Shown here piece after piece: positions 12,149 to 57,642 of a stretch of DNA of 64,000 bases. The translations under genes were made by a program, and so were the position numbers. Source of the stretch: an uncultured Armatimonadetes bacterium. Lineage in GTDB: Bacteria; Armatimonadota; Hebobacteria; Hebobacterales; Hebobacteraceae. Under the pieces are notes generated by a model that saw only the letters and a program-made list of their open reading frames with translations, did no database searches and was not told the DNA's origin. The stretch's first letter is position 1; every line of letters begins with the position of its first letter. The stretch covers positions 1,952,001 to 2,016,000 of the forward strand of contig OY970296.1 in NCBI GenBank assembly GCA_963716175.1, given 5' to 3'.

Positions 12149-12313
12149 GACGGCCCCGGCCACCCCCGACTCCGGCTGCCCCCTCGGCTGGGAGGCATTG
12201 CCAGGGTCTCCGTCACCACCCATCGTAGACGACTCTTCCCCGACACGCGAGTCACAGCCTTCCGGTTGGCGGCGTGATGTCAGGCCGGCTTCACCGGTGC
12301 GTGACAGGGACAC
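12149..12313 (+). repeat. junction hairpin repeat copy 1 (G-type left flank, type I extension)
   Basis: GACGGCCCCGGCCACCCCCGACTCCGGCTGCCCCCTCGGCTGGGAGGC plus ~100-bp extension shared with 24381 and 37857. Confidence 0.9.
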
Positions 12314-12367
12314 GTAGACTCATGACGCGCCGGTAAGACTGAGAGAATCCCGACGTCTGCCCGCCGA

Positions 12368-15300
12368 TCACACGGTGGCTGGGGCCGCGTCCACGGCGAG
12401 CAGCGCTTCCGCGTGCACAGCGAAGCGTTCGAATTCCTCTCTCACTCGTTCGAATTGTTCGCGCATCTCGGCAAGAGACCCACTGCGACTCACGCCCTCC
12501 AACACAGCCGCGGCCGCGCTCAGCGCGTCCGCTGACACCATCGCCGCTCCCCCCTTCAGCCTATGGCCGAACGCTGAGACGGCCGTCGCGTCCCCTCGCG
12601 CCAGCGCGTCCCCGAGTTCAATCAGCTCATGCGGAGTGCGTGCGACAAACACCCCAACGACCTTCCGCAGCAAAGCGAGATCCCCCGCGCAACGCGCCAG
12701 GGCGCCTTCGTAGTCAAAGGAAGCCGCCACTGTCGAGGAGCCCGAGGGTCGGCCGATCGCCTGCATCGGGAGAGTTCGCGCCTGCGTGGACAGCGACAGA
12801 GTTCCTTTGCTGGAGGGGGCCCATTTGGCGATCATCTCAAGCAGACTCTCCGGCGAGACCGGCTTAGTGAGGTAGTCGTCCATGCCCGCGGCCAAGCACT
12901 CCTCGCGGTCAGCGGTCGTCGCAGAGGCCGTCAGGGCGATGATGGGGAGGTGCGTGCTAGGAGTGAGGGCGGCGCGGGCGCGGATTCGCCGCGCGGCGGT
13001 ATAACCATCCATCTCCGGCATTTGGCAGTCCATCAGCACAAGGTCGTAACTGCGGCTGGTGGCAAGGGCAACCGCCTCCACACCATTGGCAGCGATATCA
13101 CACTGCAGACCTTCGCTCTTCAGTATCCCCTGAGCCACCAACTGGTTGGTCTCGTTGTCCTCAGCCAGCAGAATGCGCAGGTCGCGCGGCAAGGAAGGGG
13201 CATGGGAGGTGGACGCCGCACGAAGCGGCGATGGGTGGCCAGGCCGCCCGCCTGAGAGATGCAGCGCGTCCATCAGCGCGTCGAGCAGGGCTGACTGCCG
13301 TACCGGTTTGGTCAGGAACCTCGATACGCCGAGGGCCTGGTACTGCCGCCGGTCCAGACCAGAACCGATCGAAGTGAGTATGATCAGGACAGTCCCACTG
13401 ACCTTCGGATTGCCACGGACTGCCTGCGTCAGTTCCAGACCATCCATCCCAGACATCTGGTCATTGACCAGCGCGATGCGGAAGGGATTCCCTTGGTTCG
13501 CGGCCTCCAGCAGGAGATCGAGTGCCTCAGATCCATGAGCCGCGGCTACGCTCGTGATGCCCCAAGTTCCCAGTTGAGCCTGAAGAACCTGACGCTTGAT
13601 CGCATTGTCATGGACTATAATCACCCTTGCCTTGCGGAGGTCCGGGCTCCCGTCAGCACCCTGGGATGGCTGTGCCGCGGCCCCGCGCCGGAGAGGAAGC
13701 GTGAACCAGAACGTTGTCCCATGAGAGAGAACGCTCCCCACTCCGATCGTCCCCCCCATCAGCTCGACAAGGCGTTTGGAGATCGCCAGTCCCAGCCCAG
13801 TTCCACCGTACTTCCGCGTGGTTGAGGCATCCGCTTGAGAGAAGGACTGGAAGAGCCTGTCGAGTCGGTCTGCCTCGATGCCCGGTCCCGAGTCTTGCAC
13901 TGAAAGGTGAGCCACCCCATGCTCTTCGTCGATTGCCTCCCATCGGCATCCGAGCACCACCTGCCCCTGCTCGGTGAACTTGAGCGCGTTCCCGATGAGG
14001 TTGCTCAACACCTGCCGCAGACGGTGGCTGTCGCCGACCATCGGGCGCGGCAACTCGGGGGGCAGATCAGGTATCAGCTCGAGCTTCTTCTTCTGCGCCT
14101 GCTCGGCGAAAGCCTCCAGGACGCTCTCCAACGTGTCACGCAGATCGAACGTCGCCTGCTCTACCTGCATCATCCCGGCCTCGATCTTGGAGAAGTCGAG
14201 GATATCGTTGATCAGGCTGAGCAGCAGATCGGCGGAGTAGACGATGGTGCTGGCATACTGCTTCTGCTGTTCATCGAGTTCGGTCTTCAGCAGGAGCCCG
14301 GCCATGCCGACGACCCCGTTCAGGGGCGTGCGGATCTCGTGGCTCAAGTTGGCCAGGAATCGGCTCTTCGCTTCCGTTGCTGCTTTCGCTTGCTCGGCCA
14401 TCTCCTCCGCGTGCTGCCGGGCTTCGGTCAGCTCGGCGTTCGACTCAGCTAGTCGACTGTTCAGCAGGCCAACATCTTGGTACAGCCTGATGTTGTCGGA
14501 GTAAGCCAGTACCTGCCGGATCATGACTAACGCCATGAATGCGAAGCCGATCAGGACTACCCCTAACGAGACGAAGCCGTCTTCCTGTACGTCCTGAGTA
14601 AGCACGAACGCGAATGCGGAGAATGCCAGGAGGTAAGGCAGGATGGAGCGGAGAGAGTCGCCCCGGTGAACGTGAATGGGAACCGTAAGAAGCGCCGTCG
14701 GAGCACCTGTCGAATTGGCTGCGGCGCGCGCCGCAACGAGAGGAGCGCACGCAATGAGAGTGCACCCGACGTTCCAGCCCAAGTCGCCCCACTGCCCGCT
14801 CTGGTACCTGGCTGTCGCGACGGAGAACCAGTAGATAGCATCCGCAACTGACATCGCAAGCATGCCCACGGCAAGGGTCCCCATCGCCAATCGCACCCCC
14901 CGTGCCAACCGCGCCGTTGACATGAGCGCGGCCACGCACACCAACACCGCGAGATCGCCGAGGCAGTACGCGATGTTGACGCTCTTGCCGAATACCGAGA
15001 TCTCGGACTGGCGCCAGAGCGGCCCCACCAGGTAGTACCAACTGAGGACCCCCGCGGCGCTTGTGAGCAGAGCACTGTCCAGGAGGAGACGCGCTTTGCC
15101 GGCGAAGGACAGCGGTTTCAGAAAACACAGGGTGCCTGCCAACAGCGGGACGTAGAACGCGACGTAGAAGAGATCGGCCCAGCTTGGAGTCAGGACACTG
15201 ACGTGTCGTATGACCTCGTAGTACGTCCAGACAAGATCGCCCAGCATGTAGATGAAAACGGCGATCCCGATCAGCAGCCAGCCCGAGCTTTGCCACGGTG

Positions 15301-15529
15301 AGTGACGCCTGATCTGCCGGGCGCACCACAGGCACGTGACTGCAGCCCCAAGCTGAATCGGGATCGCGATAGGATCCCAGTACGCGAGGAACACCTTCTC
15401 TGACCCAGGCTTGAACAGCGCCAACACCACGGTGCCCAGTAGGTACAGACCGAACAGGACGAACGGAACGACCCAACTGCGGCCGCTCCTCCTGAGGCCG
15501 GTCCATGCACCATGGAGTGCTGCGATCAT
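12368..15529 (-). CDS. hybrid sensor histidine kinase (multi-TM, HisKA, HATPase, 2 REC, Hpt)
   Basis: [43 protein letters not shown] motifs. Confidence 0.95.
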
Positions 15530-15660
15530 CTCAGTGCTCTCGCGTTCATCCGGTCACTCGCGAGCGGCTCCCCATTCTGATCGTGGTCTCCGGCGGCGCG
15601 CACGCGCGCCTGGCTCTCTGGCGCGCGTTGGGGCGTTCTCGTTGCCTTCCACACCAGTTG

Positions 15661-16293: not shown

Positions 16294-16400
16294 TCCCGCT
16301 CCTGTTCCTGGCAACAGCAGTTCCGGCGGCGGCTGTTCGATCCCCCAGGTCCGAGGCGCCGGATATGGGGGAAGACGCACGAACGCTGTTAAGGCGCTTG

Positions 16401-16766
16401 CTACTCGTTGAGAAGAACGGCCAGGACCTCCGATACCATTTTGGAGTCGAAAGGCTTCAGCAGGCAAAGGCCAGCGCCAGCGGACAAGGCCTCACCCACA
16501 CGCTCGTCATGCGCCGAAGCCGTGATCATGACGAAGGTCGCCTTCGGGAGGACCGGGCGGATCGCTCGAAGGACCTCGAGTCCGTCCAGTTCGGGCATCT
16601 TGATATCGAGTAAGACGACATCGAACGCTTGGCTACGGGCCGCGAGGATGCCGAGTCGAGGCGATGTGTGAGTGGTCACCTGATGGCCCTGCTTGGTCAG
16701 AATGTCGCTGAGCAGTGTGCAGACGATCTCGTCATCATCGACCACCAGCGCCTTCAGCGAACGCAT
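16401..16766 (-). CDS. single-domain response regulator (CheY-like)
   Basis: VVDDD, LLDIKMPELDG, MITA, KPF. Confidence 0.92.
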   Translation of the reverse strand: MRSLKALVVDDDEIVCTLLSDILTKQGHQVTTHTSPRLGILAARSQAFDVVLLDIKMPELDGLEVLRAIRPVLPKATFVMITASAHDERVGEALSAGAGLCLLKPFDSKMVSEVLAVLLNE

Positions 16767-17220: not shown

Positions 17221-17318
17221 CTGTTGTCGGCCTAGCGCCAGAACTGGCGTTATCGGCCCAGAACGAGCGTTCCCCGTCGAGACGGATGCAGCGCAAGGGG
17301 GTGGGTCAGTTTCCGATG

Positions 17319-21460: not shown

Positions 21461-21970
21461 CCGACCCGCCTCTGACGTCAGAGTCCGCGCAGGGCGCGGT
21501 ACTGCTGGAGAGGAACCGAACTGCTGATGCCCCATACCACGCGGCACTCAGTTCGCCTGCTGCTAGTGCCTGAGATGGCACCCAGGAACGACCTCACAAC
21601 CCAGAGGGGACAGTGTCTGGCTGTCACACGGGCTTGAGGCATCCGCTTCGCGGCACATGTCAGCCCTCTGCACCTGAGAGCAGGAGTGAAGGACCGCGCC
21701 GACGCTGAGAACAGATCAGGAACTCGGGCCTGTCGGGATCGTGGTTAGCAGAGCGATGGATGAAGACGCGGGGTGGACCCGGGCCCCACGCCGTGAGATG
21801 ACCACGGGCGCCCTTGCAGGAGAGTCAGGCTACTAGCCGGTAGGCGGTGATACCGGTGTCGGCAGCGACGCGTCGCTCGAGATGGCGTGCGAGAGTGTTG
21901 GCTGGCTTCTCAGGTTCAGTCCGCTCTTCGACGTGACGAAGGCCCCGGGCACCCCCCGACTCCGGCTCCC

Positions 21971-23263
21971 TGTGCGGACCGGTTACATGGGTAACGGATG
22001 TGCCGAGTACATAGGTAACACTTCTACTCCGCCTTCGGGCACTCCCCTAGTGTCAGGCGTTTGATCACCTGATGGCAGAAGAGCACCTCCACCAGGCCGT
22101 CGATATCAGTGGCGCGCACGGCCACCGGCTGACCGCGGAAGGCCTTGGAAACGGGCAGCAGACGCCCCCCGAAGTGCACCTCGCCCCCACGCTGCACCTT
22201 GCGCACCGGCAGCCCCGGCGGGTACTGGATCGGCTCCAGCTGCGCGGGGTAGGCGCGCAGGCTGGGCTGGTAGCGACTTGCCGGCACCTCCAGCGCGAGC
22301 GCCTCGTGAGGGCGCAGGAAGTTATATTGCTCCCGCCACGGATCCAGGTGCGCCTGCAGGTGCTCCCCGTCTCGCCACTGGTGCCGCGCCAGCAGCTCTC
22401 GCTGCAAGCTGCCATGGAAGCGTTCATCCTTGCCCACGGTCTGGGGATGGTAGGGCCGAGAGTGAGTCACGTATATCCCCAGCCGCATCAGCCACACCGC
22501 CAGCGCCCCATATGCGTCCGCGGCCAGATCTCCCCAGGGACCTCCATTGTCCGACAGCATCGCCTCCGGCACCCCATAGTGCCGGAAAGCGGCCACTAGC
22601 GCCGCCTGCACGGAGCACCCGTCCTGCTTGGGCAGCGCCTGCAGAGAGAGGGCAAAGCGAGAATGATCGTCCAGCACGCTCAGCACGTGCTGGGGACCCG
22701 TCTGCGTCGCTACCGGCGCCTTGAAGTCCATCTGCCAGAGGTCGTTGGGCAGTGGGCGCTCGAAACGCACCCAGGGGCGCTGACCCGCAGGCGAGTCCGC
22801 ACCGATGAGCGCGTGCCGATGCAGGGTCGCGGTAATGGAGCTGGTGGCTGGCACGGGGTGGAGGCCCTGGTTGCGGAGCAGCCGGCGAAGCTTGCGGGCT
22901 CCCCAGCACGGGTGCGCCTGGCGGAGCGCCACGATTGCCTGCTGGGTGGCTGCCGGCAGTTGCGGGCGCCTCCGGTGGGGCCGGCGGGAGTGATCCCGCA
23001 AGCCCACTTCCCCGGCCTCAGCAAAGCGATAACACCATTTGTAGCCGATCCTGGGGCTGATGCCGAAGCGGCGGCACAGATCCCGAAACGGCACCCTCCC
23101 CTGCTGGGCGAACATCACAAACTCCCGTCGCTGCTGCTCCACGGTAACTGGCTCCCAGGGCATGGCCCCTCTCCTCTAGGAAGAGATGCATGCCTCTATA
23201 GTAACCGCTTGCCCGTTACCTATGTATCCGGTACGAGTGTTACCTATCTATCCAGTCTGTACA
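21971..23263 (-). mobile_element. IS481-family element
   Basis: TGT...ACA ends with repeated ATAGGTAAC boxes; 5-bp TSD CTCCC (21966-21970, 23264-23268). Confidence 0.95.
22024..23163 (-). CDS. IS481 family transposase
   Basis: MPW start, WQMDFK, SDNG, GKDERFH, RPHEAL. Confidence 0.95.
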   Translation of the reverse strand: MPWEPVTVEQQRREFVMFAQQGRVPFRDLCRRFGISPRIGYKWCYRFAEAGEVGLRDHSRRPHRRRPQLPAATQQAIVALRQAHPCWGARKLRRLLRNQGLHPVPATSSITATLHRHALIGADSPAGQRPWVRFERPLPNDLWQMDFKAPVATQTGPQHVLSVLDDHSRFALSLQALPKQDGCSVQAALVAAFRHYGVPEAMLSDNGGPWGDLAADAYGALAVWLMRLGIYVTHSRPYHPQTVGKDERFHGSLQRELLARHQWRDGEHLQAHLDPWREQYNFLRPHEALALEVPASRYQPSLRAYPAQLEPIQYPPGLPVRKVQRGGEVHFGGRLLPVSKAFRGQPVAVRATDIDGLVEVLFCHQVIKRLTLGECPKAE

Positions 23264-23621
23264 CTCCCCCCTCGGCCGGGAGTCACTGGGCGGGGTCCCG
23301 TCGCGTGTGGGTGGGCGGGCTGCGCGCATCTGGTGGTTCCAGCCTCCAGCCAGATCGAGTGCCCACGATAGACGGGGGGATGCCGTCAGGGCGAGGCTGG
23401 GGCGGCTCTAAGGCGAGGTGACCCCTACAGCTGGGCGCAGGCGGAGAGCATGCTGATCTCATCCTGGGTCTCTACGCCCAGGGGCGCGGCAGCGGCGCCG
23501 AGTCACAGGTGGGATCGTCTCGCCGTTCGGCCGTTCGGCTGTAGTTGACGCCCTCCCCGCGGCCTGTTAGCATCCACGTCGCAGTTGCTCTCTCCACTGC
23601 CAAGGGGGAAGGAGGGGTGCC

Positions 23622-24335
23622 ATGCGTACAACGCTGCTTATCGTTTTCCTCGCGATGGTCGTCTGCGTCTGTGGCTGTGTTTTCGTCGTCAACTCTGTGC
23701 AGCCGTTCTACACCGAGAGGGACGTCGTCTTCGAGCCAGCGCTGATCGGGTCGTGGGAGCAACAGCCGGAGAAGGGCGAGCAGGCGGCCGAGAAGTCCCC
23801 CGTTATCTGGACGTTCAAGAAGAGCGAGGAGGCGGCGGAGAACGATGCCGCCAGCTATGAACTGAAGATGAGCCAGGGGGATCGCTGGGCGACATTCAGC
23901 GTGCACCTCGCCAAGCTGGGAGAGGATCGCTTCCTCGACCTCTACCCCGAGGACATCTGCCCGCAGGCGCTCGGCGAGAAGCCCGGAGACACTACCACCG
24001 ACGGTGATGGCTCGGAGGGCGGTTTCGTGCTCCTCTCCTTCTTCCTCCACTTTGCGCCCACTCACACCGTCTCGCGGATCCACCTTTCGGGCGACGAGCT
24101 GAAGATCGCGCAGTTGAATGCGGACTGGCTGGCTGAGAAGGCCGGGGAGAAGCCGCTGAATCTTCCGCACGTGGACAGAGAGGGCGCGCTGATACTGACC
24201 GCCTCGCCGGAGCAGCTCCGCGCGTTTCTGCTGGAGCACGCGAGCGAGGATAGAGCGTTCAAGGCGCCAGTGGTGCTGAAGCGGCAGAAGCCGGGGGCTT
24301 CCGGGCAGACGAAGGGACGCGAGAGCACGAAGTAG
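23622..24335 (+). CDS. putative lipoprotein
   Basis: GGAGG RBS; lipobox-like VCGC. Confidence 0.8.
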   Translation: MRTTLLIVFLAMVVCVCGCVFVVNSVQPFYTERDVVFEPALIGSWEQQPEKGEQAAEKSPVIWTFKKSEEAAENDAASYELKMSQGDRWATFSVHLAKLGEDRFLDLYPEDICPQALGEKPGDTTTDGDGSEGGFVLLSFFLHFAPTHTVSRIHLSGDELKIAQLNADWLAEKAGEKPLNLPHVDREGALILTASPEQLRAFLLEHASEDRAFKAPVVLKRQKPGASGQTKGRESTK

Positions 24336-24380
24336 CGCGCACGCGTGAGTCAGCCACCGGCCGGCGCCACGCTCGTGCGT

Positions 24381-24545
24381 ACGGCCCCGGTCACCCCCGA
24401 CTCCGGCTATCCCCTCGGCGTGGAGTCACGGCCCGGGGCTCAGTCGCGGGTCGTCGTGCGACGGCGCTTCCCTGACACGCGGGTCACAGCCTTCCGGTTG
24501 GCGGCATGATATCAGGCCGGCTCCATGGGTGGCTGACAGGGACAG
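24381..24545 (+). repeat. junction hairpin repeat copy 3 (G-type left, type I extension)
   Basis: Aligns with 12149-12313. Confidence 0.9.
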
Positions 24546-26356: not shown

Positions 26357-26423
26357 AGCACCCTTCCCGGACGGGCTAGTAGCGTCTTGCCTTCGGCAAG
26401 GTGGGCAGGCGACCCTTTGTGCT

Positions 26424-26510
26424 TGCCAACCGCCCGTGAAGCCGGCCTGAGGCCACCCCCGACTCCGGCTACCGCCCCGGCTTGGAGTCACTGGCCGGGG
26501 TTTCGTCGCG
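26424..26510 (+). repeat. junction hairpin repeat copy 4 (A-type left flank)
   Basis: TGCCAACCGCCCGTGAAGCCGGCCTGA followed by the core. Confidence 0.9.
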
Positions 26511-27936: not shown

Positions 27937-27980
27937 GCCGGGGTATGCACTCCCGCCCAATCGTCGGCTGACCAGCCTCG

Positions 27981-28035
27981 CTCCCCGCCACCCCCGACTC
28001 CGGCTACCCCTCGGCTGGGAGTGAGTGACCGGGCC
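27981..28035 (+). repeat. junction hairpin repeat copy 5
   Basis: CCACCCCCGACTCCGGCTACCCCTCGGCTGGGAGTG. Confidence 0.85.
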
Positions 28036-28164
28036 GAAACGCGCTATGCGACGATACGTCCCAGGAAGACGAGACTGAGACCTGGGACCATCCCCCTATC
28101 GGTCCTGACGGCCATTGCGGTATGCTGATCAGGCATGCAGACAGTGCGCAAGGAGGTAGAACCG

Positions 28165-30730: not shown

Positions 30731-32304
30731 GGTGGGCAACGGGGATTCCGGGCTTCGCGGTTCTTGCGGGGCTGGCCGGTCTCCAGCCCGCCGTCGCGGC
30801 GGCCGATGTTGGCACCAGACTCCTGGCGAGCGAAACCTGCCTGTCGAAGCTGCCACCCGGCCTCTCCCAACTGGCTATCAGCCCAGATGCCCGTCGTGTC
30901 GCATATGTCCTCCATCAGGGAAGCGGATCGGTAGTAACAGTGGATGGCCGGGCCGGAAGGCGCTATCAGGACGTCCGCGGCCTGGCCTTCAGCCCCGATA
31001 GCAGGCGGCTCGCCTTCGCCGCGAGGAAACGGGTGAAGTGGCTAGTCGTGGCCGACGGGGTCGAAAGCAGGAGCTACGACGATGTCTCCGATCCCCGTTT
31101 CAGCCCAGACAGCAGGCGGCTGATGTTCGAGGTCGGTCGCGGCGGAACCATTGGGCAATCCACTCCCTGGTGGGAGGTGGACAGGAAGAAAGGCCGGGCG
31201 GGGAGGTACCGGCTGGTGGTGAACGGCGTCGAGAGCCGGACCTACGACTGGATCGGCTACTGGGGTGACGTCTTCACCGATAGAGGAGTGGCCTACTGGG
31301 CCAGGAGCGGCCGCAGGCACGTGGTCGTCGTGAACGGTCGGGCGGGCAGGCAGTACGATTGGATCTGGGGGCCATACCTGAGCCCGGACGGCAGACGCAT
31401 AGCATATGTCGGCTCGCAGCGTGAGGGTGCAGATCTCCGCTTCTTCGTGGTGGTGGACGGCGTCCGAAGCGGCGCGTACAGCTTCGTTGGCAAGCAGTTC
31501 TTCGCGTTCAGTCCTGACAGTGAGCACTACGCCTACCTGGCTTACCGCGGCGGCGAACTGGTGATTGTGGCAGACGGCCGGGAACAGATGCTGGGGCCGC
31601 ACTCCCGCGAGAACTTCGCCTATGTGGGTTTCAGCCGAGACGGCAAGCACGTGGCCTACAGCGCGAGAGCATCCGGCGGGGGCCCGTGCGCTGTCGTGCT
31701 CGACGGCAGCGAAGGGAAGGAGTACGACGGGGTCGCGTTCGACAGTCCCCGGTTCAGCCCTGACAGCCGCCGCTTCGCCTACCTTGCCCTGGCCGACCGC
31801 GAATCCTGGGTGGTGGTCGTGGACGGGCAGGAGGGAAAGCACTATGCCGGTGTTGCCGCCGCTTCGCTCGTGTTCTCCCCCAACGGCAGGCACCTTGCCT
31901 ACATCGCGGGCCGCGCCGGGGAGCAGTTCGTAGTCGTTGACGGAGCCGAAGGAAGTGCTTACGACTCCATCGTGAAAGGTTCCCTCCTCTACGCTCCGGA
32001 CAGTAAACACCTAACCTATGTCGCCCTCCGCAACGGCCGTAGGTTCGTTGTTAGCGACGGACGAGCCGGCGGCGGCTATGAGCGCATCGTGGGGCCGGTT
32101 TTCGGTCCTGACAGCACACATGTGGTGTACGGTGCTGTGACCGGGACAAGCGGGGTCCTCGTGGCGGACGGAGCGGAGATGCCCGCGCGGTATTCCGACT
32201 TCCCAAACGCTCGCATCGCCTTCGACACCGCGAACCGCTTTCACGCCGTGGCTCGCAGAGGCAACGATCTTCTGCGCGTCGAGGTGGCAGTCGCTCCGCG
32301 ATGA
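30727..32304 (+). CDS. TolB/WD40-like beta-propeller protein
   Basis: Repeated VVVDG.EG..YD...FSPDSRR; ATGA overlap with the upstream gene. Confidence 0.85.
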   Translation: MRWATGIPGFAVLAGLAGLQPAVAAADVGTRLLASETCLSKLPPGLSQLAISPDARRVAYVLHQGSGSVVTVDGRAGRRYQDVRGLAFSPDSRRLAFAARKRVKWLVVADGVESRSYDDVSDPRFSPDSRRLMFEVGRGGTIGQSTPWWEVDRKKGRAGRYRLVVNGVESRTYDWIGYWGDVFTDRGVAYWARSGRRHVVVVNGRAGRQYDWIWGPYLSPDGRRIAYVGSQREGADLRFFVVVDGVRSGAYSFVGKQFFAFSPDSEHYAYLAYRGGELVIVADGREQMLGPHSRENFAYVGFSRDGKHVAYSARASGGGPCAVVLDGSEGKEYDGVAFDSPRFSPDSRRFAYLALADRESWVVVVDGQEGKHYAGVAAASLVFSPNGRHLAYIAGRAGEQFVVVDGAEGSAYDSIVKGSLLYAPDSKHLTYVALRNGRRFVVSDGRAGGGYERIVGPVFGPDSTHVVYGAVTGTSGVLVADGAEMPARYSDFPNARIAFDTANRFHAVARRGNDLLRVEVAVAPR

Positions 32305-32363
32305 TGTGCCTTCATCCTCTTCTTTGAGGGAGGCTTCTCCCGAACTCTTGGTGTACAGGAGAG

Positions 32364-35182: not shown

Positions 35183-35247
35183 CGTGCCTTCGTCCTCTTC
35201 GAGGGAGGCTTCTCTCGAGCTCTTGGTACACAGGAAGGAGGGCGGCG

Positions 35248-37479
35248 ATGCTGATGGCACGAGGTGTGGCTGATCTGCGAGTCAACGCGCGGCGATTCCG
35301 GTTGCCCGCGCGCCTCACCCTCCCTTCTGTCGTGATGGTGGCAGTTACTGTGCTGACGGGATTCACCACGCGCGAGAGCGTCGCCGGCGATGGCGCGCAG
35401 GGCAGGGGGAGCAGCTTCCATCCCTTCCTCAGCGGTGACGGGCGGTATGTCGCTTTCGAGTCAGGTGTCAGCCACCCTCCCCGCGCCGGCCGTGTACACA
35501 GCGCGACCGGCGTCTTTGTGCGCGACCTACGGACTGGGACGACGGAACTGGCGAGCACTGCCACCGATGGGAGCCCGTTCCGCGAGCCCTGCGGTGCTGA
35601 AGGCATCAGCGCGGACGGGCGCTACGTTCTGTTCTACCGCGATCCCATTGGCCTCTTCGTGCGCGACCGGCAGGCCAGCAGGACGGAGCGGGTGACCGAC
35701 AGCAGCTACTTCGGCGTCCTGAGCGTCGACGGACGGTACGTCGCGTTCATCTCGGATGCCAGCGACCTCGTGGCCGGTGACACGAACGGTGTGATGGACA
35801 TCTTCGTGCATGACCGGCGGACCGGCAAGACCGAGCGGGTAAGCGTTGCCAGCGATGGGACGCAAGGAAACTCGGGAAGTGACTCCCCGTCTCTGAGCGC
35901 TGACGGGCGGTACGTCGCATTCGAGTCGGAGGCCAGCGACCTCGTGGCCGGCAGCACAAACGGCAGGGGTGGCGTTTTCGTGCATGACCGGAGGACCGGG
36001 AAGACCGAGCGGGTGAGCGAGGGCACGTACCCTTGCCTCAGCGCCGACGGCCGGTACGCTGCGTTCGTGTCAGGGGCAAGCGATCTTGTGCCTGGCGACA
36101 CCAACGGCGTGAACGATATCTTTGTGCGCGATCGGCGGACTGGGAAGATGGAGCGGGTGAGCGTGGCCAGCGACGGTACGCTGGCCGACAGGGGCGGGTT
36201 CGTTCCTCGCGAGGGATTTCTGGGCAGCCTCAGTCCTGCCCTCAGCGCCGACGGCCGGTACGTTGCCTTCACTTCGCATGCGACCAACCTCGTGCCCGGC
36301 GACACGAACGGCGCGACCGACATCTTCGTGCACGACCGGTGGACAAGGAAGACGGAGCGAGTGAGCGTGGCCAGCGATGGCGCGCAGGCCAACGGCTCGA
36401 GCAGCGACCGCGAGCGTCCAGCCATCAGCGCCAACGGGCGTTACGTTGCGTTCACCTCTTACGCCAGCAACCTTGTGCCCAGCGACACAAACGGCCAGGG
36501 CGACGTCTTCGTACACGACCGGCGGACTGGAAAGACGGAGCGGGTGAGCCTGTTCCGCGATGAGAGCATCGTCGAGGCCTGGCACCGCGGCGGCTTCAGT
36601 AGTCCCGTCTCGCTGTCTGTCTACCCCGTAGATGGATCCTGCTGGGTGACTGACCCGGCCGCCGCGCGAGTGATCCACCTCGCCATGAGCGGGGAGACCC
36701 TGTGGAGTGGCGGGGACTTCCGTTCCCCCTGCTCGGCGTCCGTCAACTCGCAGGATGGCTCCTGCTAGATCGCTGATTCCCAGGGCAAGCAAGTCGCGCG
36801 CCTCGCCGCAGACGGTTCGGAGGTGTGGCGGAAGGAGGGTCTCACAGCCCCTTCTTCGGTCACGGTCAACCACGACGACGGCTCCTGCTGGGTGACCGAC
36901 GCGGGCGCGCTCATCCACCTGTCCGCGGACGGCACGGAACTCTCGCGAGCACCCGCGTTCGCGACGGGCTCTGCCGTCAACCCGATGGATGGGTCTTCTT
37001 GGGCAAGTGACTGGTCAGACCCAGAGAAAGCGGACAGGCCGGCACATGAGGTGCACTCCGCGCTGGTCCACCTGTCCGCGGATGGCCGGCAGCTCTGGCG
37101 CCTGCCGGCTCAAGGCTGGTATGCCGGCTTCGAGGCCACTGCAGTCAACCCCGTGGACGGGTCGTGCTGGGTCGCTTGGGTTGAACGACGCCACGATGTG
37201 GGGCGGTACGACAGCAAGGTGATCCACTTCGCGGCTGACGGAAGACAGCTCTGGGAGGCCACTGGGTTCGAGCCTGAAATGCGTCTCGCCGCGTCGCTCT
37301 ATGATGGCTCCTGTTGGGTCACGAGCGGGAACCGGCTGACCCACCTCGCTGCGGATGGCAGGGAGCTCTCGCGAGCCCCCGCCGCGGGCGACGAGATCGT
37401 TGCTCCCAACCTAGCGGACAACTCCGTCTGGGTGGCACGGCCCAGCGGCGGCGTGGTACTGCGGCTCTTGGTCTACTGA
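35248..37479 (+). pseudogene. chimeric TolB-like plus DGSCW-repeat propeller protein with in-frame TAG at 36766-36768
   Basis: GSC-TAG-IAD where sister repeats read GSCWVAD; same frame resumes to 37479. Confidence 0.85.
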
Positions 37480-37856: not shown

Positions 37857-38022
37857 GACGACACCGCCCACCCCCGACTCCGGCTACCCCCTCGGCTGGG
37901 AGTCACTGCTCGGGGTTCCGTCGCGTACCGTCGAGCGACGGCTCTTCTCGGACACGCGGGTCACCGCGTTTCGGTTGGCGGCGTGGTGTCAGGCCGGCTC
38001 CACAGGCGTCTGACAGGGACAC
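37857..38022 (+). repeat. junction hairpin repeat copy 6 (type I extension)
   Basis: Aligns with 12149 and 24381 copies. Confidence 0.9.
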
Positions 38023-40481: not shown

Positions 40482-40577
40482 CGGCTGCCCCCTCGGCTGG
40501 GAGTCAGTGTCTGGGGTTCCGTCGCGGATGAGGACAGCAGCCGCGCCACGGTGGCGATCACAGGCAGCCCCAGCCAG
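40482..40577 (+). repeat. junction repeat copy 7 (right half only, type II extension)
   Basis: CGGCTGCCCCCTCGGCTGGGAGTCAGTGTCTGGGGTTCCGTCGCG plus GCAGCCGCGCCACGGTGGCGATC. Confidence 0.8.
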
Positions 40578-40763
40578 CCCAAGCGCCACCCGGCATCCTT
40601 CTCCGCCCTCCGCGCTCCCCAGAACAGGGGTGTCAGCGACTGGAGAGAATACCGCTACTGAGGCTGCAGCACTGCCTTGGGATGCAAATAAGTTGCTGGA
40701 CACCGCGGGATGCAGGACGCTCCCAGGCGCGGGCGGAGCTGAGGCAGGGGAGGACCGCCGCAG

Positions 40764-42766: not shown

Positions 42767-42808
42767 CTGTCCATGTCAACCGCCCTTGAAGCCGGCCTGA
42801 GGGCACTC
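42767..42808 (+). repeat. isolated A-type flank module
   Basis: CTGTCCATGTCAACCGCCCTTGAAGCCGGCCTGAGGGCAC. Confidence 0.8.
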
Positions 42809-42989
42809 GCAGGCTTGTGTGCCCGATCCTGTTCCTGCATCATCTGAAGCCAGGATTAGGTGACTTCGGGCGCCGCTTTCGCGTTGAGGAGTGGAACCGG
42901 CATGGAGGTCTTCCCTGCATCCGTCGGGCCGGTCTTCCTGTAGCGGCCGAAAGGACAGAGTGCGGCTCATCGCGGAGGACCCATGGACT

Positions 42990-43058
42990 GACGGCCCCGA
43001 GCGGCCCCGACTCCGGCTACCGCTTCAGCTTGGAGTCACTGCTCGAGGTTCCGGCGCG
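42990..43058 (+). repeat. junction hairpin repeat copy 8
   Basis: GACGGCCCCGAGCGGCCCCGACTCCGGCTACCGCTTCAGCTTGGAGTCACTGCTCGAGG. Confidence 0.9.
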
Positions 43059-43444
43059 TGTACGGCTGATCCTCGCCCGCACGCAAGCTCAGAGGCCGCT
43101 CAGGGGTGTCCCATCGCCATTTGAAACCGGCAACGATGTCCATGTGCCCCCTGCTTCCAAGCTTTCCGTGCCCAAGCCGACTTCTCACCGCTCGCCTGCC
43201 CTCCTGCCAGTGAGCGGGCCGGCCGCGCTTCGGGAAGGTCCCTGACGCCTGGGGCACAGGTCAGCCCCAGGCCCATGACGAAGGAGAGGCCCCGGTTCTG
43301 CTCGCGGCAGACCAGTGGACCGCCTGCCGAGGTCCTTGTGCTGCCTGTAGTTGGGCACGAAGCTCCTTCCCAAAGGCGCTCGGAAGGATGATGCCGTACG
43401 CCCACGGCAAGATCGTCAGCAGTCCGAAGTACGGAGGTGACCAC

Positions 43445-46201: not shown

Positions 46202-46598
46202 CATATCGGCGCCGCTCAGCGCGGAGTTCATTTCGTAACCGCGTGCCTTCAACACTACTCGGTGAGATACTCGCCAGTGCCGAGGCGCCGCTCGCCGTGT
46301 TACTGGCGGCGATGTTCGTTGTGGCGCTGGGGAGGAAGTACGTCAGGGGGTGGACTGGATGGAGGACCATCTGCAGTCACCCGGCCATGGTCGCAGGTTC
46401 GAATCGAGGTCGCATAGAGGCGCTTACTTGGAGAGTAAGGACCCCGCTACCAACCTGCGACCTTGGGGCATTTCGGGACTCATTTTGCCTTCGCGTCGCC
46501 CATCCGCCAGGCCCTCGAAACCGTCCCCAGGAGCTTCTGAGGCATCCTGAAGGCGGTTTCGACGATCCAGCGCCGGGTGCGCGTCTTCTTTTCCACTA

Positions 46599-46619
46599 CG
46601 AATCCTGCCCCCGCTACCA
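46599..46619 (+). other. tRNA-Met-like 3'-end fragment (probable att scar)
   Basis: CGAATCCTGCCCCCGCTACCA with no 5' tRNA body. Confidence 0.65.
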
Positions 46620-51050: not shown

Positions 51051-51113
51051 GCCGGTCCCGGGTAGCCCCGACCCCGGCTGCCCCTTCGGCTGGGAGTTAT
51101 CGCACAGGGACCC
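51051..51113 (+). repeat. junction hairpin repeat copy 9 (degenerate)
   Basis: CCCCGACCCCGGCTGCCCCTTCGGCTGGGAGTT. Confidence 0.75.
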
Positions 51114-51165
51114 TTCGGGCAGGGAGGCGATCCTCGACTGGCGAAGAAAGCTTCAGATCCGTACC

Positions 51166-52867: not shown

Positions 52868-53123
52868 CTCAGCGAGAACGAAGCAGCGCCATCCCACCGC
52901 GGAGCGGACCTCTGGCAGCGGCCCCGTCGCGGTGCCGAGCACCGGCGGGCGCACCCATTTGAATCCCAGCGAGGTATCCTTCATCGGCTCGGCGTAATCC
53001 CGGACCAGGGCTGTCAACGAGCGCAGGGAATACCACCCATGGGCTCTGCAGGGGCCCTGAGAGCCAGATAGGTTTTCGGACAGCGCAGGTACAGGCGGCG
53101 CCACGAGACGAGAGAGTCGAAGA

Positions 53124-54869
53124 ATGAGAGCGGTTATCTTCCTGAGCTGTGTGGTGGGCCTGATGGCAATGCCCGCGGGCTGTGCGGCCGCAACGGATGC
53201 GGTCAAGTCACAGAAGCTGGTGCTGGAGGCGCCGACAGTTCATTGCCTGGGGGTGAGATGGTATGTGGCCGGGGATGAGAACGGGAACGCCTCGGTGCAG
53301 GTGAGTTATCGAGAGAAGGGGGAGAGCAGTTGGCATCAGGCGATGGACTTGTTCCGTGTGGGCACCGGGCCGGATTCGCAGGAAGGCGAGAAGCGACTCG
53401 AAAGCGGGGGCCGAGACGAGTGGCCGTTCCCGCTGGGCAACTTCTTCGCCGGAAGCGTGTTCGATCTGAAGCCAGACACGGTGTATGAAGTGAGGTTTGC
53501 CCTCTCTGATCCTGACGGCGGGAGGTTCGTGGAGAAGGTGCAGGCCCACACGCGCATGATCCCCGTGTCGCCGAAGCCGGAACGCACGCTCCATGTGGTA
53601 CCCGGCGCCGGGGGCGGAAGTGGGACACAGGAGGACCCGCTGCGCGGGCTGGAGGCGGCGGATGCGGTGGCCAGGCCGGGCGATCTACTCCTGGTGCACC
53701 AGGGCGTGTACCAGGGGCCGTGGGAGACCGACAAGAGCGGGAAACCGGGCGCGCCCATCGTATGGCGAGCGGCGGGAGACGGGGAGGCGGTGGTGGACGG
53801 CGGCGGGGCGCACCGGGCGGTGGGGGCAAACCAGACCCATGATCTGTTCTTCGAGGGGCTGGCGTTCCGCAACGCAGACTTCGTCTTCGTCGCGCACGGA
53901 GCTTCCAATCTCTCCGTGCAGCGGTGTCACTTCTACCAGTGTAACTACGGCTTCACCGCCCACAACAACGAGCCGCCCATGGGCGGCTTCTACATCGCCG
54001 ACAACCTGTTCGAGGGGCCCTCCACCTGGCCGCGCACGAAGGGGATCGAGGATGCGCGGGCGATTCAGGTGTCCGGTGAGGGGCACGACATCTGCTACAA
54101 CCGCATCCGCGGCTTTGGCGACGGCATTGACATCATGGGCTCCCCTCCCGGCCGCGCCATTGACTTCTACAACAACGAGATCTCCGAATGCACCAATGAC
54201 GCCATCGAGCTGGACTACGGCCAGACCAATGTGCGCGCATTCAGGAACCACATCACCAACTGCTTTGAGGGCATCAGCACCCAGCCGCTCTATGGTGGGC
54301 CCGCCTATATCTTCCGGAACGCTATGTACAACCTGGAGTACACTCCCTTCAAGATGCACAACCGTCCCTCTGGGGTATTGCTCTTCCACAACACGATAGT
54401 GAAGAGCGGCATCCCGTGGCCCCTCTACTCGGGCGCGCCAGTCGGGAAGGCGATGTCCTGCAACAACCTCTTTGTGGGCGGGCCGGCGGACTATGCGATG
54501 GAGTTCAGCCCATTGGTTGAACAGGCTCACTTCGACCACGATGGATTCGCGGGCGGACCTTTCGCCATGTTCGCCAAGTGGCGTGGCGAGCGATATGTCA
54601 CATTTGGTCACTTCCGGAGCCAGAGCGGCATCGAACGCCACTCGGTCTGGCTGGGGAACGGATCCCCCTTCGCCTCCGGGGTGAAGGTGCCGGCCAATCT
54701 CAGCGAGCAGTTCCCGATCACCGCCAACGACCTCCGGCTGAAGCCGCAGTCACGGGCTGTTGACGCAGGTCTGGTCCTCCCGAACCTGAATGACGGCTAC
54801 TCGGGCAAGGGACCGGACCTGGGGGCGTACGAGCTAGGGCAGGCGCTGCCACACTATGGGCCCCGGTAG
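53124..54869 (+). CDS. secreted right-handed parallel beta-helix protein
   Basis: Signal peptide; PGDLLLVHQGVY; Asn-ladder repeats; PDLGAYE C-terminus. Confidence 0.85.
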   Translation: MRAVIFLSCVVGLMAMPAGCAAATDAVKSQKLVLEAPTVHCLGVRWYVAGDENGNASVQVSYREKGESSWHQAMDLFRVGTGPDSQEGEKRLESGGRDEWPFPLGNFFAGSVFDLKPDTVYEVRFALSDPDGGRFVEKVQAHTRMIPVSPKPERTLHVVPGAGGGSGTQEDPLRGLEAADAVARPGDLLLVHQGVYQGPWETDKSGKPGAPIVWRAAGDGEAVVDGGGAHRAVGANQTHDLFFEGLAFRNADFVFVAHGASNLSVQRCHFYQCNYGFTAHNNEPPMGGFYIADNLFEGPSTWPRTKGIEDARAIQVSGEGHDICYNRIRGFGDGIDIMGSPPGRAIDFYNNEISECTNDAIELDYGQTNVRAFRNHITNCFEGISTQPLYGGPAYIFRNAMYNLEYTPFKMHNRPSGVLLFHNTIVKSGIPWPLYSGAPVGKAMSCNNLFVGGPADYAMEFSPLVEQAHFDHDGFAGGPFAMFAKWRGERYVTFGHFRSQSGIERHSVWLGNGSPFASGVKVPANLSEQFPITANDLRLKPQSRAVDAGLVLPNLNDGYSGKGPDLGAYELGQALPHYGPR

Positions 54870-55016
54870 CCGCCGCCGGGCGCGCCGCCAGCGGGGGCGG
54901 AGGGTGGAGCGTTCATGCCCAAGGGGCAGTCGGCGAGAGTGATCGTAGAGGGAGTCGGCCTGGTCCACCAGGACCGCGGACAGGACCGGCCCCTCGTTCT
55001 TATTCACGGCTCTGGA

Positions 55017-55171
55017 TGTCCACCGCTCGTGAAGCCGGCCTCAGGGCACCTCTCGACTCCGGCTGCCGCTCGTCTTGGAGTCACTGGACGGGGTTCTATC
55101 GCGCAGGCAGGGAGGACACCACGGCAGGTCCGGGGCCGGCGCTCGCCGCGGTCACCCGTGCATACCGGACC
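55017..55171 (+). repeat. junction hairpin repeat copy 10 (A-type left, type III extension)
   Basis: A module, core, then GGTCCGG...CCGGACC hairpin. Confidence 0.85.
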
Positions 55172-55195
55172 TGGGATTGCCCCGCAAGCCCCCGA

Positions 55196-55750
55196 TCAGT
55201 CATGGTGGCCTATGGTCTGCTCGTCTCTCTTCGCTAGGTCGAGGACCATGTGGATGTCCTCTGGTTCGCGCTCGTATAGCTCCCTGTTGACATCCAGCGT
55301 CGGGCGGAAGCCGCGGCTGCGGTAGAACCCGACGGCCGAGCGCGACGGGGTGGCAGAGACGTACAGCGCGGCCGACCCCGCGTCTCGGGCAAGCCTCTCC
55401 ACCTCCTGCGCCAACCGCGTCGCAACACCCCGACGACGGTGAGTGCGACTGACCCACAGTCCCCCGAATTCGGACATGCCCGGGCTCAGGTGGGCACGGA
55501 AGATCGCAAGGCCCACAAGGAGATCGCCCTCGAACGCGCCGATCATCACGTCCCCCCTCACCAGGCGCTGGCGGATGCGTTCGACACGTCTGCTGCACTC
55601 CTCATCACTCCATCGGGCTCTAGTCCACTCCTCGGGTACGGCCACCACCTCGCCGTCGATCCACTGGTAGACGATGTCTCCATGCTCGGAGACATCCAGC
55701 TCGCGGAGGCGCTTGGCCTCATCTGGCCCCATCCATCTGGTCTCGATCAT
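55196..55750 (-). CDS. GNAT family N-acetyltransferase
   Basis: LWVSRTHRRRGVA, SATPSRSAVGFYRSRGF, EPEDIHM. Confidence 0.9.
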   Translation of the reverse strand: MIETRWMGPDEAKRLRELDVSEHGDIVYQWIDGEVVAVPEEWTRARWSDEECSRRVERIRQRLVRGDVMIGAFEGDLLVGLAIFRAHLSPGMSEFGGLWVSRTHRRRGVATRLAQEVERLARDAGSAALYVSATPSRSAVGFYRSRGFRPTLDVNRELYEREPEDIHMVLDLAKRDEQTIGHHD

Positions 55751-55875
55751 CGTAGATCTCTCCTGCCTCCGAGCGATGTGGCCTGCTCCCGCGCTATGTC
55801 TCCTCGCCGGTGAAAAGGAGACGCCTTCATTGCTTCGCCAACCTGCAAACGTGGCCCAATGGCGTCTGCTTCCCT

Positions 55876-56030
55876 CTGTCGCTGTCAACCGCCCGTGAAG
55901 CCGGCCTGAGGACACCCCCGACTCCGGTTGCCCCTCGGCTCGGAGTTGCTATCCGGGGGTTCGTCTCGTATGTGTCCGGTATGGCAGGGCAGCCGCCCCA
56001 CGCTGGCGATCTTGGGCGGGCCCGCCCAGT
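55876..56030 (+). repeat. junction hairpin repeat copy 11 (A-type left, type II extension)
   Basis: A module, core, then GCAGCCGCCCCACGCTGGCGATC. Confidence 0.85.
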
Positions 56031-56211
56031 TCGGGCCCCGACCAACTCCTAGCCCATCCCCAGTGCCTCCCAGACCAGGGATGTCCGCGAGGGCACAGAA
56101 TGGCACAAGAGGGGCTGTGCAGGGGGTCCGGGAGCCATATCGGCTTGCAGACATGATGATCTCGCCCTTCGCGGCGCTCACCATACCAACCACCTAGCGG
56201 GAGCCAACCGC

Positions 56212-57177
56212 ATGCGCGACATCCGCGTTGCCAGCGTCCAGTTCGAACACGCGCCCGGTGGTAAGCAGGCAAACCTCGACAAGATTCGTCACTTCGTCGC
56301 CGAGGCTGCCTCTCAGGGCGTGGAGATGATCGCCTTCCCGGAGTGCTGCATCACCGGCTACTGGTTCCTGCGCCACCTGTCCCACGATGAGATAGCCGCT
56401 TTGGCAGAGCCGCTGTATGACGGTCCGTCCTGCCAGGAACTGATGGCTCTGTCGCGGCGGTACGGGATAACGATTGGCGCGGGCATGATCGGGATCGAGG
56501 ATGGCCGGCGGATCTACAAGCCCTACGTGGTGGCGATGCCGAACGGCGAGTTCCGTCACCACCGGAAGCTCCACCCTTTCGTCCACCCCAGCATTGTGCG
56601 CGGCGGTTCCTACACGGTGTTCGACACTCCTCACGGCTGCCGCGTCGGTGTGCTCATCTGTTATGACTGCAATATCATCGAAAACGTGCGCATCGCCGCA
56701 CTGATGGGCGCGGAGGTTCTGCTCGCACCCCATCAGACCGGCGGCTGTCGCTCCAATGACCCCAACATCATGGGGATCATTGACCGCGCGCTCTGGGACA
56801 ACCGAAGTACCAACCCCGAGGCCATCGAGGACGAGTTCCGTGGCGAGAAGGGAAGAGGCTGGCTGATGCGGTGGCTGCCTTCCCGCGCCCACGACAACGG
56901 GATGTTCCTCATCTTCAGCAACGGGGTGGGGATAGATGATGATGAGGTCCGCACGGGCAACGCTATGATCATCGATCCCTATGGCCGTATCCTCTCCGAA
57001 ACCTGGAAGGCCCAGGACGATATGGTGGTGGCCGACCTCGACGCATCCCTGCTGCCAGAAAGCACCGGACGGCGGTGGATCCGAACACGCCGGCCCGAGC
57101 TCTATGGTCCGCTCAGGATACCCACCGGTCTTGAGCAGGACGCACGCGCGGTGCGGTTCGACGGCAAAGGCGCTTAG
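56212..57177 (+). CDS. nitrilase / carbon-nitrogen hydrolase family protein
   Basis: Catalytic E-K-C: FPEC, HRKLH, ICYD. Confidence 0.93.
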   Translation: MRDIRVASVQFEHAPGGKQANLDKIRHFVAEAASQGVEMIAFPECCITGYWFLRHLSHDEIAALAEPLYDGPSCQELMALSRRYGITIGAGMIGIEDGRRIYKPYVVAMPNGEFRHHRKLHPFVHPSIVRGGSYTVFDTPHGCRVGVLICYDCNIIENVRIAALMGAEVLLAPHQTGGCRSNDPNIMGIIDRALWDNRSTNPEAIEDEFRGEKGRGWLMRWLPSRAHDNGMFLIFSNGVGIDDDEVRTGNAMIIDPYGRILSETWKAQDDMVVADLDASLLPESTGRRWIRTRRPELYGPLRIPTGLEQDARAVRFDGKGA

Positions 57178-57508
57178 CCCAACTACGCCCGGCTCGGCCT
57201 GACCTGTTTCGTCTGGCTGTGCACCCCAATAGCCCTATCCAAGCACTCCTGGGCGGTTCTCTTCCCGGCTGAGTCGGTGCTATCCTTGCCTCATGAGTAC
57301 CGTTTCGAGCTTCCTGTCTAAGGGATGTTCCGTCAAACGTCGCCCGCGAGGCGTCGGACGCCCGCCGTGACCAGCCGGTCGCGGAACATGCGAGAGGCGG
57401 CCAGACACAAGGTCCGCTGTATCGTGGCACCCCGACCGGAGGCGCAGTGATCAGAGTTGAAGGGCCTGCCAGCAGCACCCTAGTGCGGGCCGCCGAACAT
57501 GCGTCGGC

Positions 57509-57642
57509 GGCGGCCCCGAGCACCCCCGACTCCGGCTACCCCCTCGGCTTGGAGTCACTGTCCGAGGTCCGGTCGCGGACGGGAGAGCGCATCGCGCGGG
57601 TCCGGTACCGGCGATCACTCGGCCGCCCGGGCATGCCGGACC
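57509..57642 (+). repeat. junction hairpin repeat copy 12 (G-type left, type III extension)
   Basis: Near-consensus core plus GGTCCGG...CCGGACC. Confidence 0.9.

What the first reader, a model, noticed from the sequence alone, without database searches (positions are those of the whole stretch)
12149..57642. Left and right flank modules are reassorted around a constant core
Seen: two left flanks occur, G-type GACGGCCCCG (12149, 24381, 42990, 57509, 63024) and A-type TGTCAACCGCCCGTGAAGCCGGCCTGA (26424, 55017, 55876). Three right extensions occur: type I ~100 bp (12149, 24381, 37857), type II GCAGCCGCSCCACGSTGGCGATC (40482, 55876) and type III GGTCCGG..CCGGACC hairpin (55017, 57509). Combinations include G+I, G+III, A+II and A+III. 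Types I and III always precede a - strand gene, type II a + strand gene. Inference: strand exchange occurs inside the core, so each junction joins the end of one unit to the start of the next.
Basis: partly seen in the sequence, partly recalled or inferred. Interest (0 to 1): 0.7.

Follow-up and report, generated by a model that had tools for sequence, protein, structure and literature searches.

The report
Shuffled repeat built from transposon ends
In a family of uncultured bacteria, a ~70-base repeat sandwiched between leftover ends of insertion sequences separates single genes in long same-direction arrays; its two sides are freely mixed, most likely because copies recombine with each other without one fixed cut site, which would let genes be shuffled integron-style without an integron.

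Summary
The window has 14 co-oriented copies of a ~69-bp core, the genome 111 hits, and related genera carry it too. Left and right modules combine independently (chi-square p=0.72, n=265).

The modules are ends of IS3/IS481-like elements with their inner side facing the core. A-left is the inverted repeat of 'ISY'. Type I is ISY's last ~22 codons plus that repeat reversed. Type II is the left end of 'ISX'. G-type is the core's own left end. Type III is unidentified.

Duplicated cargo genes with new neighbours often break in the core (8 of 18 ends; cores are 1.9% of array DNA), but breakpoints are spread along it. Others fall in IS ends (3) or elsewhere (7). No integron integrase passes the cut-off and no attC boxes were found; the island XerC-like gene also occurs without cores. 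The gene-strand rule is only a bias.

Best reading: a MITE-like mosaic repeat whose IS ends capture neighbours and whose core serves as a short-homology recombination patch inside tRNA-anchored islands. The enzyme is not shown. The scan had already noted this repeat family in other windows of this genome.

The parts
12149..12217 (+). Core repeat with its own (G-type) left end
12218..12312 (+). Type I module: last ~22 codons of the ISY transposase (..FPDTRVTAFRLAA*) plus ISY inverted repeat
   Evidence: (full ORF in L052)
10335..12114 (+). Cargo (DoxX + endonuclease/exonuclease/phosphatase). Duplicated at genome 2087839-2089645 with the same core and type I module; identity ends inside the IS repeat
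21938..21970 (+). Left part of a core split by IS481 (5-bp duplication 21966-21970)
21971..23263 (-). IS481-family element, 1293 bp; all 4 full copies in the genome sit at this same position of a core
23264..23305 (+). Right part of the split core
23622..24335 (+). Cargo gene (237 aa, no Pfam hit); 99% copy at genome 1033605-1034334 joined to a different right module
24380..24448 (+). Core, G-type; from -7 onward (core plus type I) nearly identical to an A-type site at genome 2067597
24449..24544 (+). Type I module (ISY right end)
26418..26450 (+). A-type module: ISY terminal inverted repeat
26451..26510 (+). Core
27977..28043 (+).
37857..37925 (+). Core, degenerate G-type left end
37926..38021 (+). 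Type I module (ISY right end)
40482..40526 (+). Core, left part lost
40537..40702 (-). Type II module: left end, 5' UTR and first codons of the ISX transposase, reading toward the core
42768..42930 (+). ISY left end not fused to a core (shows the native continuation of the A-type module); right limit approximate
42990..43058 (+). Core, G-type
43059..43124 (-). R3 module: clusters with right flanks that match the left end of another ISY subfamily
51051..51119 (+).
52918..53082 (-). Type II module without a core; a duplicated cargo block starts inside it
53124..54869 (+). Cargo (beta-helix protein); 98% copy at genome 1912502-1914563, identity ends at core position about +10
55011..55043 (+). 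A-type module (ISY repeat, degenerate)
55044..55103 (+). Core
55127..55171 (+). Type III module; 11 members among 265 right flanks, origin not identified
55877..55909 (+). A-type module (ISY repeat)
55910..55968 (+). Core
55989..56153 (-). Type II module (ISX left end)
57509..57577 (+). Core, G-type
57599..57642 (+). Type III module
59867..59939 (+).
63024..63091 (+). Core, G-type with the longer left extension seen at other sites

Best explanation
The sites are a MITE-like mosaic repeat, a ~69-bp core often joined to short ends of IS3/IS481-like elements; the transposases of those elements likely attached the ends to new neighbouring genes, and short-homology recombination at the core (and at the IS ends) likely swaps left and right sides without a fixed cut, building same-direction gene arrays in tRNA-anchored islands. 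Shown: the identity of the A, I, II and R3 modules, their inward orientation, free reassortment, dispersed breakpoints, duplicated cargo with new neighbours, and the island setting. Inferred: transposase-made outer junctions (from sharp ends and a target consensus); circular or linear cargo-plus-repeat units integrating at a core, as translocatable units do; and host recombination (RecA, possibly on transforming DNA) as the catalyst. Unknown: where the core came from and how exchange tolerates ~72% mean identity between cores.
For: Module identity. Type I translates to the C-terminus of a 413-residue open frame of an rve transposase in L052, followed by the same repeat. Type II is the reversed left end of a full 373-aa rve element at genome 2861899. 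Both score below the IS481 and IS3 NCBIfam cut-offs.

Orientation. 129 of 272 right flanks and 72 of 272 left flanks hit a reference element near the junction; by my reading of the table about 124 and about 60 have the inner side toward the core.

Outer junctions. Conservation drops exactly at the IS terminus, and the flanks show a symmetric CC-NNN | NNN-GG bias (A: C 0.77 and 0.70, n=83; type I: G 0.58 and 0.67, n=33). Several native ISY copies show the same bias.

Reassortment and breakpoints. Left x right are independent. In 9 left-sharing pairs identity runs through position -1 (mismatch ratio 0.2-0.3) and then reaches background. In 18 right-sharing pairs it is only partial over +21..+49 (0.45-0.6). 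8 of 18 duplicate ends lie in cores (p=2e-7 against 4%), and exchange is also seen inside IS ends.

Machinery. A new junction to a recombinase gene shows microhomology (L095/L180). recA is present in 3 of 3 genomes and comEC in 2 of 3. All 6 genomes with a core match also carry ISY.
Against: Cores are short and diverged: the median longest identical run is 12 bp and only 10% of pairs share 20 bp or more, which is poor substrate for RecA. No RecT or ERF was found in 15 family genomes, and mutS is intact in G005, which has many cores. No empty site was found in the sequence held. None of the 12 A+core+type I copies has a matching 3-bp duplication (read; only 1 of 7 native ISY copies does, so this is weak). 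Most left flanks carry no recognised IS end. 99 of 111 cores point along the presumed replication direction (origin estimated only from GC skew), and IS481 hits one core position four times; both hint at a specific function the model does not explain.
Confidence: 0.55

Rival explanations
1. The core is the target of a dedicated but unidentified recombinase or transposase (possibly acting on a single-stranded hairpin, or the island XerC-like enzyme). This would be an integron-like system with non-attC sites, the spread of breakpoints coming from later conversion between cores.
For: 97 of 100 neighbouring cores within 20 kb share a strand, with a strong replichore bias. The consensus is an imperfect palindrome. 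The XerC-like gene lies opposite to and upstream of several arrays in G000 and G011. IS481 targets one core position.
Against: No fixed crossover fits: some left-sharing pairs differ from -10 onward, and some right-sharing pairs with 96-99% identical flanks differ up to +43/+48. No covariation, and individual copies fold no better than shuffles (mean z +0.26). The XerC-like gene occurs at 70% identity or more in G008, G012 and G018, where the core was not found, and was not found at that level in G003, G009 and G014, which have a core. Y1 transposases lie 71 kb or more from any core.
Confidence: 0.2
2. The repeat is selfish or neutral debris: MITE-like pieces pile up in island safe havens, flank mixing comes from occasional deletions, conversion and slippage, and gene shuffling is a by-product with no organised role.
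For: 7 of 18 duplicate ends are away from any module. Microhomology deletions trim some junctions. IS-end chimeras also occur without cores. A stand-alone A-core-type II copy sits between ordinary genes in G009.
Against: Median spacing of 1.9 kb, often one or two genes per interval, near-perfect co-orientation over 200 kb, enrichment of breakpoints in cores, and the same cargo between cores in other genomes (L122, L103).
Confidence: 0.2
3. The cores are attachment-site scars of small islands integrated in tandem at tRNA or tmRNA 3' ends by the islands' serine recombinases.
For: Two arrays start about 260 bp after tRNA-Ser genes. Others lie in islands with a large serine recombinase. 16 of 19 core bases match the tRNA-Cys 3' end.
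Against: That match scores 26 against a random 95th percentile of 25. Real tRNA 3' fragments occur separately (window 46389-46619; genome 2290260). The intervals carry no integrase, and the breakpoints are not fixed.
Confidence: 0.05

Closest known systems
MITEs, in particular TIMEs (PMC4133298, passages read; PMC10969869, passages read)
   Same: Short non-coding elements with IS-derived terminal repeats and no transposase. TIMEs too mostly lack paired target duplications (4 of 18 have them), which the authors attribute to homologous recombination between copies, and can mobilise neighbouring DNA.
   Different: Here the two ends come from several IS3/IS481-like subfamilies and are mixed or missing. 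There are about 100 copies in co-oriented arrays, whereas TIMEs are usually single copy. No empty site was found.
IS26 translocatable units and pseudo-compound arrays (PMC4196232, abstract and outline; PMC7885326, abstract and outline)
   Same: Unique cargo segments interspersed with directly oriented copies of one element, without paired duplications; units can move to new neighbours.
   Different: IS26 copies are complete and need intact transposases in both partners for the targeted reaction. Here no site encodes a transposase, the family is IS3/IS481-like, and exchange is mostly inside a short diverged core.
Integron cassette arrays / CALIN (PMC4889954, passages read)
   Same: Co-oriented imperfect palindromes separating one or few genes, in large clusters, with the same cassette found in different orders.
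   Different: No integrase over the TIGR02249 cut-off, no R boxes, cargo on both strands, no fixed crossover, IS-end flanks.
Neisseria NIME/dRS3 mosaic arrays and CGTC-tagged REPs (PMC1797815, passages; PMC3733652, passages)
   Same: A conserved short palindrome combined with many families of flanking modules, proposed to promote exchange of adjacent genes; no dedicated transposase known. Half of the cores (52 of 103) have CGTC near the right end.
   Different: The core is ~69 bp (REPs 20-40 bp, dRS3 20 bp), single rather than in dimers or dense intergenic arrays, strictly co-oriented, and separates whole genes.
Tycheposon / PICI-like tRNA-anchored islands (bioRxiv 10.1101/2020.12.28.424599, passages read)
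   Same: The host islands have an integrase at a tRNA or tmRNA, a primase, a small terminase subunit and variable cargo.
   Different: This describes the setting, not the repeat; in those islands elements are separated by partial tRNAs, which the core is not.

Membership tests
Integron / CALIN | Integron integrase in the genome | tested here: not met
   TIGR02249 best 90 bits vs cut-off 265 in 5 of 5 genomes (none of the 14 control genomes passed the cut-off either); candidates also below. CALINs can lack it.
Integron / CALIN | attC R boxes RYYYAAC / GTTRRRY at the ends (motif recalled) | tested here: not met
   0 of 103 cores on either strand
Integron / CALIN | Sites co-oriented in clusters | tested here: met
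   97 of 100 neighbours within 20 kb; 43 of 47 external loci with two or more cores
Integron / CALIN | Fixed crossover point; cargo mostly in one orientation | tested here: not met
   Breakpoints spread; cargo on both strands
Integron / CALIN | Conserved folded single strand | tested here: inconclusive
   Inner helix 94% paired but no covariation beyond shuffles; copies no more stable than shuffles
MITE / TIME | Ends derived from an autonomous IS, facing outward, no transposase inside | tested here: met
   met for sites with modules, while most left flanks have no recognised end
MITE / TIME | Cognate transposase in trans | tested here: met
   ISY: 11 matches in G000, several full length; ISX: one full copy. 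Activity untested.
MITE / TIME | Matched pair of ends from one element | tested here: inconclusive
   A+type I is 14 of 265 sites (2 in G000); most sites are hybrids or one-ended
MITE / TIME | Target duplication or empty site proving movement as a unit | tested here: not met
   0 empty sites in the sequence held; 0 of 12 matched 3-bp flanks. Low power.
IS26 translocatable units | Directly oriented copies between unique cargo | tested here: met
IS26 translocatable units | Intact IS26-family transposase in each copy | tested here: not met
   Sites are non-coding; parents are rve IS3/IS481-like
IS26 translocatable units | Circular unit or RecA-independent targeted integration | not testable with these tools
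   Only assembled contigs were available
REP / RAYT | Y1 transposase flanked by the repeats | tested here: not met
   5 Y1 hits in G000, nearest core 71 kb away
REP / RAYT | 20-40 bp palindrome with terminal GTAG or CGTC | tested here: inconclusive
   CGTC at +43..+46 in 52 of 103 cores, but the core is ~69 bp and shows no dimers
tRNA-att tandem island scars | Repeat is a tRNA or tmRNA 3' fragment | tested here: not met
   No tRNA alignment stands out: best scores 26-30 against random 95th/99th percentiles of 25/29

The most novel reading that the evidence does not exclude
A non-integron gene-collection system. IS3/IS481-like transposases working in trans clip IS-end modules onto new genes, and a dedicated mismatch-tolerant, replication-strand-biased reaction at the ~69-bp core chains and reorders those units inside phage-satellite-like islands. 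The core would be a new class of recombination site, already exploited as a landing pad by an IS481.
Probability: 0.2. Interest if true: 0.8.

Novelty: new variant of a known kind. Interest (0 to 1): 0.48.

Why it matters
It shows how an integron-looking array of about 100 sites can be assembled from transposon ends plus a short shared patch. This bears on how bacteria without integrons collect and reorder accessory genes, and on the open question of how cassettes are first made. It also warns against filing co-oriented hairpin arrays as CALINs. The practical reach is limited: the repeat was found only in one family of uncultured bacteria, and no enzyme or activity is shown.

Tried and rejected
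Rfam found no family at the sites; the only hit is a c-di-GMP riboswitch at 165-256. Structured RNA or conserved ssDNA hairpin: no covariation (one search used a mis-registered structure and is void).

Candidate enzymes. Integron integrase: rejected. Island XerC-like recombinase: attractive by position, but its distribution does not match (genomes are 74-95% complete, so 'not found' is not absence). Second tyrosine recombinase at tRNA-Thr: present in 6 of 14 family genomes, including some without cores. IS91-type Y2 transposase: 0 of 5 genomes, but the controls did not ring, so uninformative. RecT and ERF: 0 of 15. Loss of mismatch repair: mutS is split in G000 and G011 but intact in G005; other genes (XerC/XerD) are split in G000 too, so assembly indels are likely.

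Other ideas. The A/type I repeat as a tyrosine-recombinase site or promoter was dropped once it proved to be an IS terminus. A tRNA origin of the core was not significant. A coding origin of the core gave no clear codon pattern, and no transposase reads through it.

Distribution searches. No match in viral contigs or phages, and only chance-level hits in plasmids. Of 401 phylum genomes, 6 from the family matched, plus 2 borderline hits outside it that look like chance (that search scored only 2 candidates per genome).

Sequencing runs. No RNA holder listed. The four runs laid were contigs only, and their joints at cores most likely come from other copies of the repeat, so they are not used as evidence.

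The proposed left/right trees were replaced by contingency, Mantel and pairwise breakpoint tests, because the halves are too short and the flank classes are not alignable.

Literature: ten searches gave no paper describing this repeat. The library lacks most subscription papers, and no supplements were opened.


Full report
Observation. The window holds 14 co-oriented copies of a ~69-bp core, one of them split by an IS481. They separate one or a few unrelated genes on either strand: a histidine kinase, glycoside hydrolases, a GNAT acetyltransferase, beta-helix and SLH proteins. A profile finds 111 hits in the 4.56-Mb genome and 2 weak ones in the reversed control. Copies cluster in seven regions; 97 of 100 neighbours within 20 kb share a strand, and 99 of 111 point away from the GC-skew minimum near 1.15 Mb.

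Distribution. The core is abundant in G005 and G011 and detectable in G003, G009 and G014, all in the same family. It was not convincingly found outside that family among 401 phylum genomes. The one named genome hit is an Armatimonadota MAG; I did not test the taxonomy of G000 directly. Pooling everything gave 286 distinct sites, 272 of them well aligned.

What the flank modules are. Type I translates as ..FPDTRVTAFRLAA* at nearly all of 17 sites. In L052 the same peptide ends a 413-residue open frame of an rve transposase (ISY) and is followed by the same repeat. The A-type flank is that repeat in the opposite direction, and occurs without a core at the head of ISY left ends (window 42768, genome 4518676). 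Type II is the reversed left end, 5' UTR and first codons of a second rve element (ISX, genome 2861899-2863020). Both parents resemble IS3 and IS481 but fall below both cut-offs. Clustering found further modules (R3, R5, R6 and two small left groups) that are ends of other ISY subfamilies. 129 of 272 right flanks and 72 of 272 left flanks hit a reference element near the junction, about 124 and about 60 with the inner side toward the core (my count from the table). Conservation stops at the IS terminus, and the DNA outside shows a symmetric CC-NNN | NNN-GG bias that several native ISY copies share. This is what transposase-made junctions would look like (inference). The G-type flank is complementary to the core's right end and belongs to the core. 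Type III (11 sites) was not traced to a parent.

Reassortment test. A versus non-A is independent of right class (p=0.72 for 265 sites; p=0.45 within G000), and flank distances are uncorrelated. Adjacent thirds of the core correlate weakly, the distant thirds do not, and each flank correlates at most with its neighbouring third, so linkage fades gradually. Among 9 independent pairs sharing a left flank, identity runs through -1 and then falls to background. Among 18 sharing a right flank, the mismatch ratio is 0.45-0.6 over +21..+49 and background to the left.

Individual pairs exclude one cut site. Window 55055 and its copy switch near +10; 24399 differs from its left-flank twin from -10 on; and pairs with 96-99% identical right flanks differ up to +43 or +48. 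I curated the self-comparison by hand, dropping IS copies, IS-like repeats of uncertain nature and island-backbone repeats, and merging repeated pairings. That left 9 cargo families with 18 ends: 8 in a core in at least one copy (cores are 1.9% of array DNA; p=2e-7), 3 in IS-end modules, 7 elsewhere. Window 12149 is an example of exchange in the IS repeat rather than the core. The gene-strand rule is a bias: type I 10 same / 16 opposite, type II 42/12, type III 2/5.

Setting. Two arrays start about 260 bp behind tRNA-Ser genes. Others lie in islands with a large serine recombinase at a tRNA or tmRNA, a primase, a ParB-methyltransferase, a small-terminase-like gene and a XerC-like recombinase. 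That recombinase often points away from the array, but it also occurs in three genomes where the core was not found, and was not found in three that have it. No integron integrase passes its cut-off and no core has attC R boxes (motif recalled). The palindrome shows no covariation. All four full IS481 copies in the genome sit at core positions +8..+12 with a 5-bp duplication matching each site's own allele.

Mechanism. The most likely reading (0.55) has two steps. Transposases acting in trans join IS-end modules to new genes. Recombination over the shared core, or over the IS ends, then swaps sides, integrates units in direct orientation, and leaves hybrid sites without paired duplications. 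Microhomology creates or trims some junctions. recA and comEC are present. The weak point is homology: mean core identity is 72% and the median perfect run 12 bp, with no RecT or ERF found and mutS intact in G005. No empty site was found. A dedicated unknown enzyme (0.2), neutral debris (0.2) and tRNA-att scars (0.05) remain as rivals.

Comparison. It works like an IS26 translocatable-unit array or an integron array but fails defining tests for both. It is closest to MITE/TIME mosaics, for which recombination between copies has been inferred (PMC4133298, passages), and to Neisseria NIME arrays (PMC1797815, passages). Ten literature searches found no description of this repeat. Earlier notes of this scan describe the same family in other windows and had already called it a mosaic with one IS end and no fixed cut; I took the IS-end lead from them and tested it. 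Added here: the parents and inward orientation of most modules, the target bias, the quantified independence, the breakpoint census, the IS481 targeting and the island context.

Verdict: real, a new variant of a known kind, interest 0.48.

Noticed in passing
window 21971-23263; genome 1725530-1726825, 1904466-1905761, 1934780-1936084: All four full-length copies of a 1293-bp IS481 (99.7-100% identical proteins) sit at the same position in a core with a 5-bp duplication. Related end sequences appear at about +28 of other cores (genome 1058917, 1949167, 2026254, 2258949).
   Followed up: partly
genome 747667, 789636, 1072225, 2099497, 2279676, 2285183 (also 162056, 981231): Many tRNA-Phe-like copies, six of them inside core arrays and antiparallel to the cores, several preceded by partial duplicates of the 5' end.
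   Followed up: no
L191+L002, L192+L005, L199+L022, L200+L025, L194+L023, L196: A recurring satellite-like island: tRNA, large serine recombinase, often a primase, three unknown ORFs (113, 266 and 193 aa; no Pfam or PHROG family), ParB-methyltransferase, small-terminase-like gene, variable surface or signalling gene, XerC-like recombinase, then cargo. About 8 XerC-like copies in G011.
   Followed up: partly
window 46389-46619: Fragments of the tRNA-Met 3' end, probably the far end of an island, beside IS21 and IS256 pieces.
   Followed up: no
L095:1604-1945 and L180:330-629: A core fused directly to the middle of the XerC-like gene (codon ~192) through a short microhomology.
   Followed up: yes
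genome 3620960-3623537, 4482827-4483320, 3112541-3113069: mutS, xerD-like and xerC-like genes are each split in G000, and mutS is fragmented in G011; probably assembly indels, not checked against reads.
   Followed up: partly
window 30940-36768: Long PD40 (WD40-like) repeat gene in several pieces, with about 20 internal repeats.
   Followed up: no
window 165-256: c-di-GMP-I-GGC riboswitch (74 bits) ahead of a 128-aa ORF without a Pfam match.
   Followed up: no
genome 1879065-1879081: The tmRNA 3' end is followed by an inverted copy of its T-arm, and a 98-base copy of the tmRNA 3' part lies at 2476740-2476837.
   Followed up: no
L215 (G009): A stand-alone A-core-type II element between a small oxidoreductase-like gene and a catalase-like gene (both named by eye from the translation).
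   Followed up: partly
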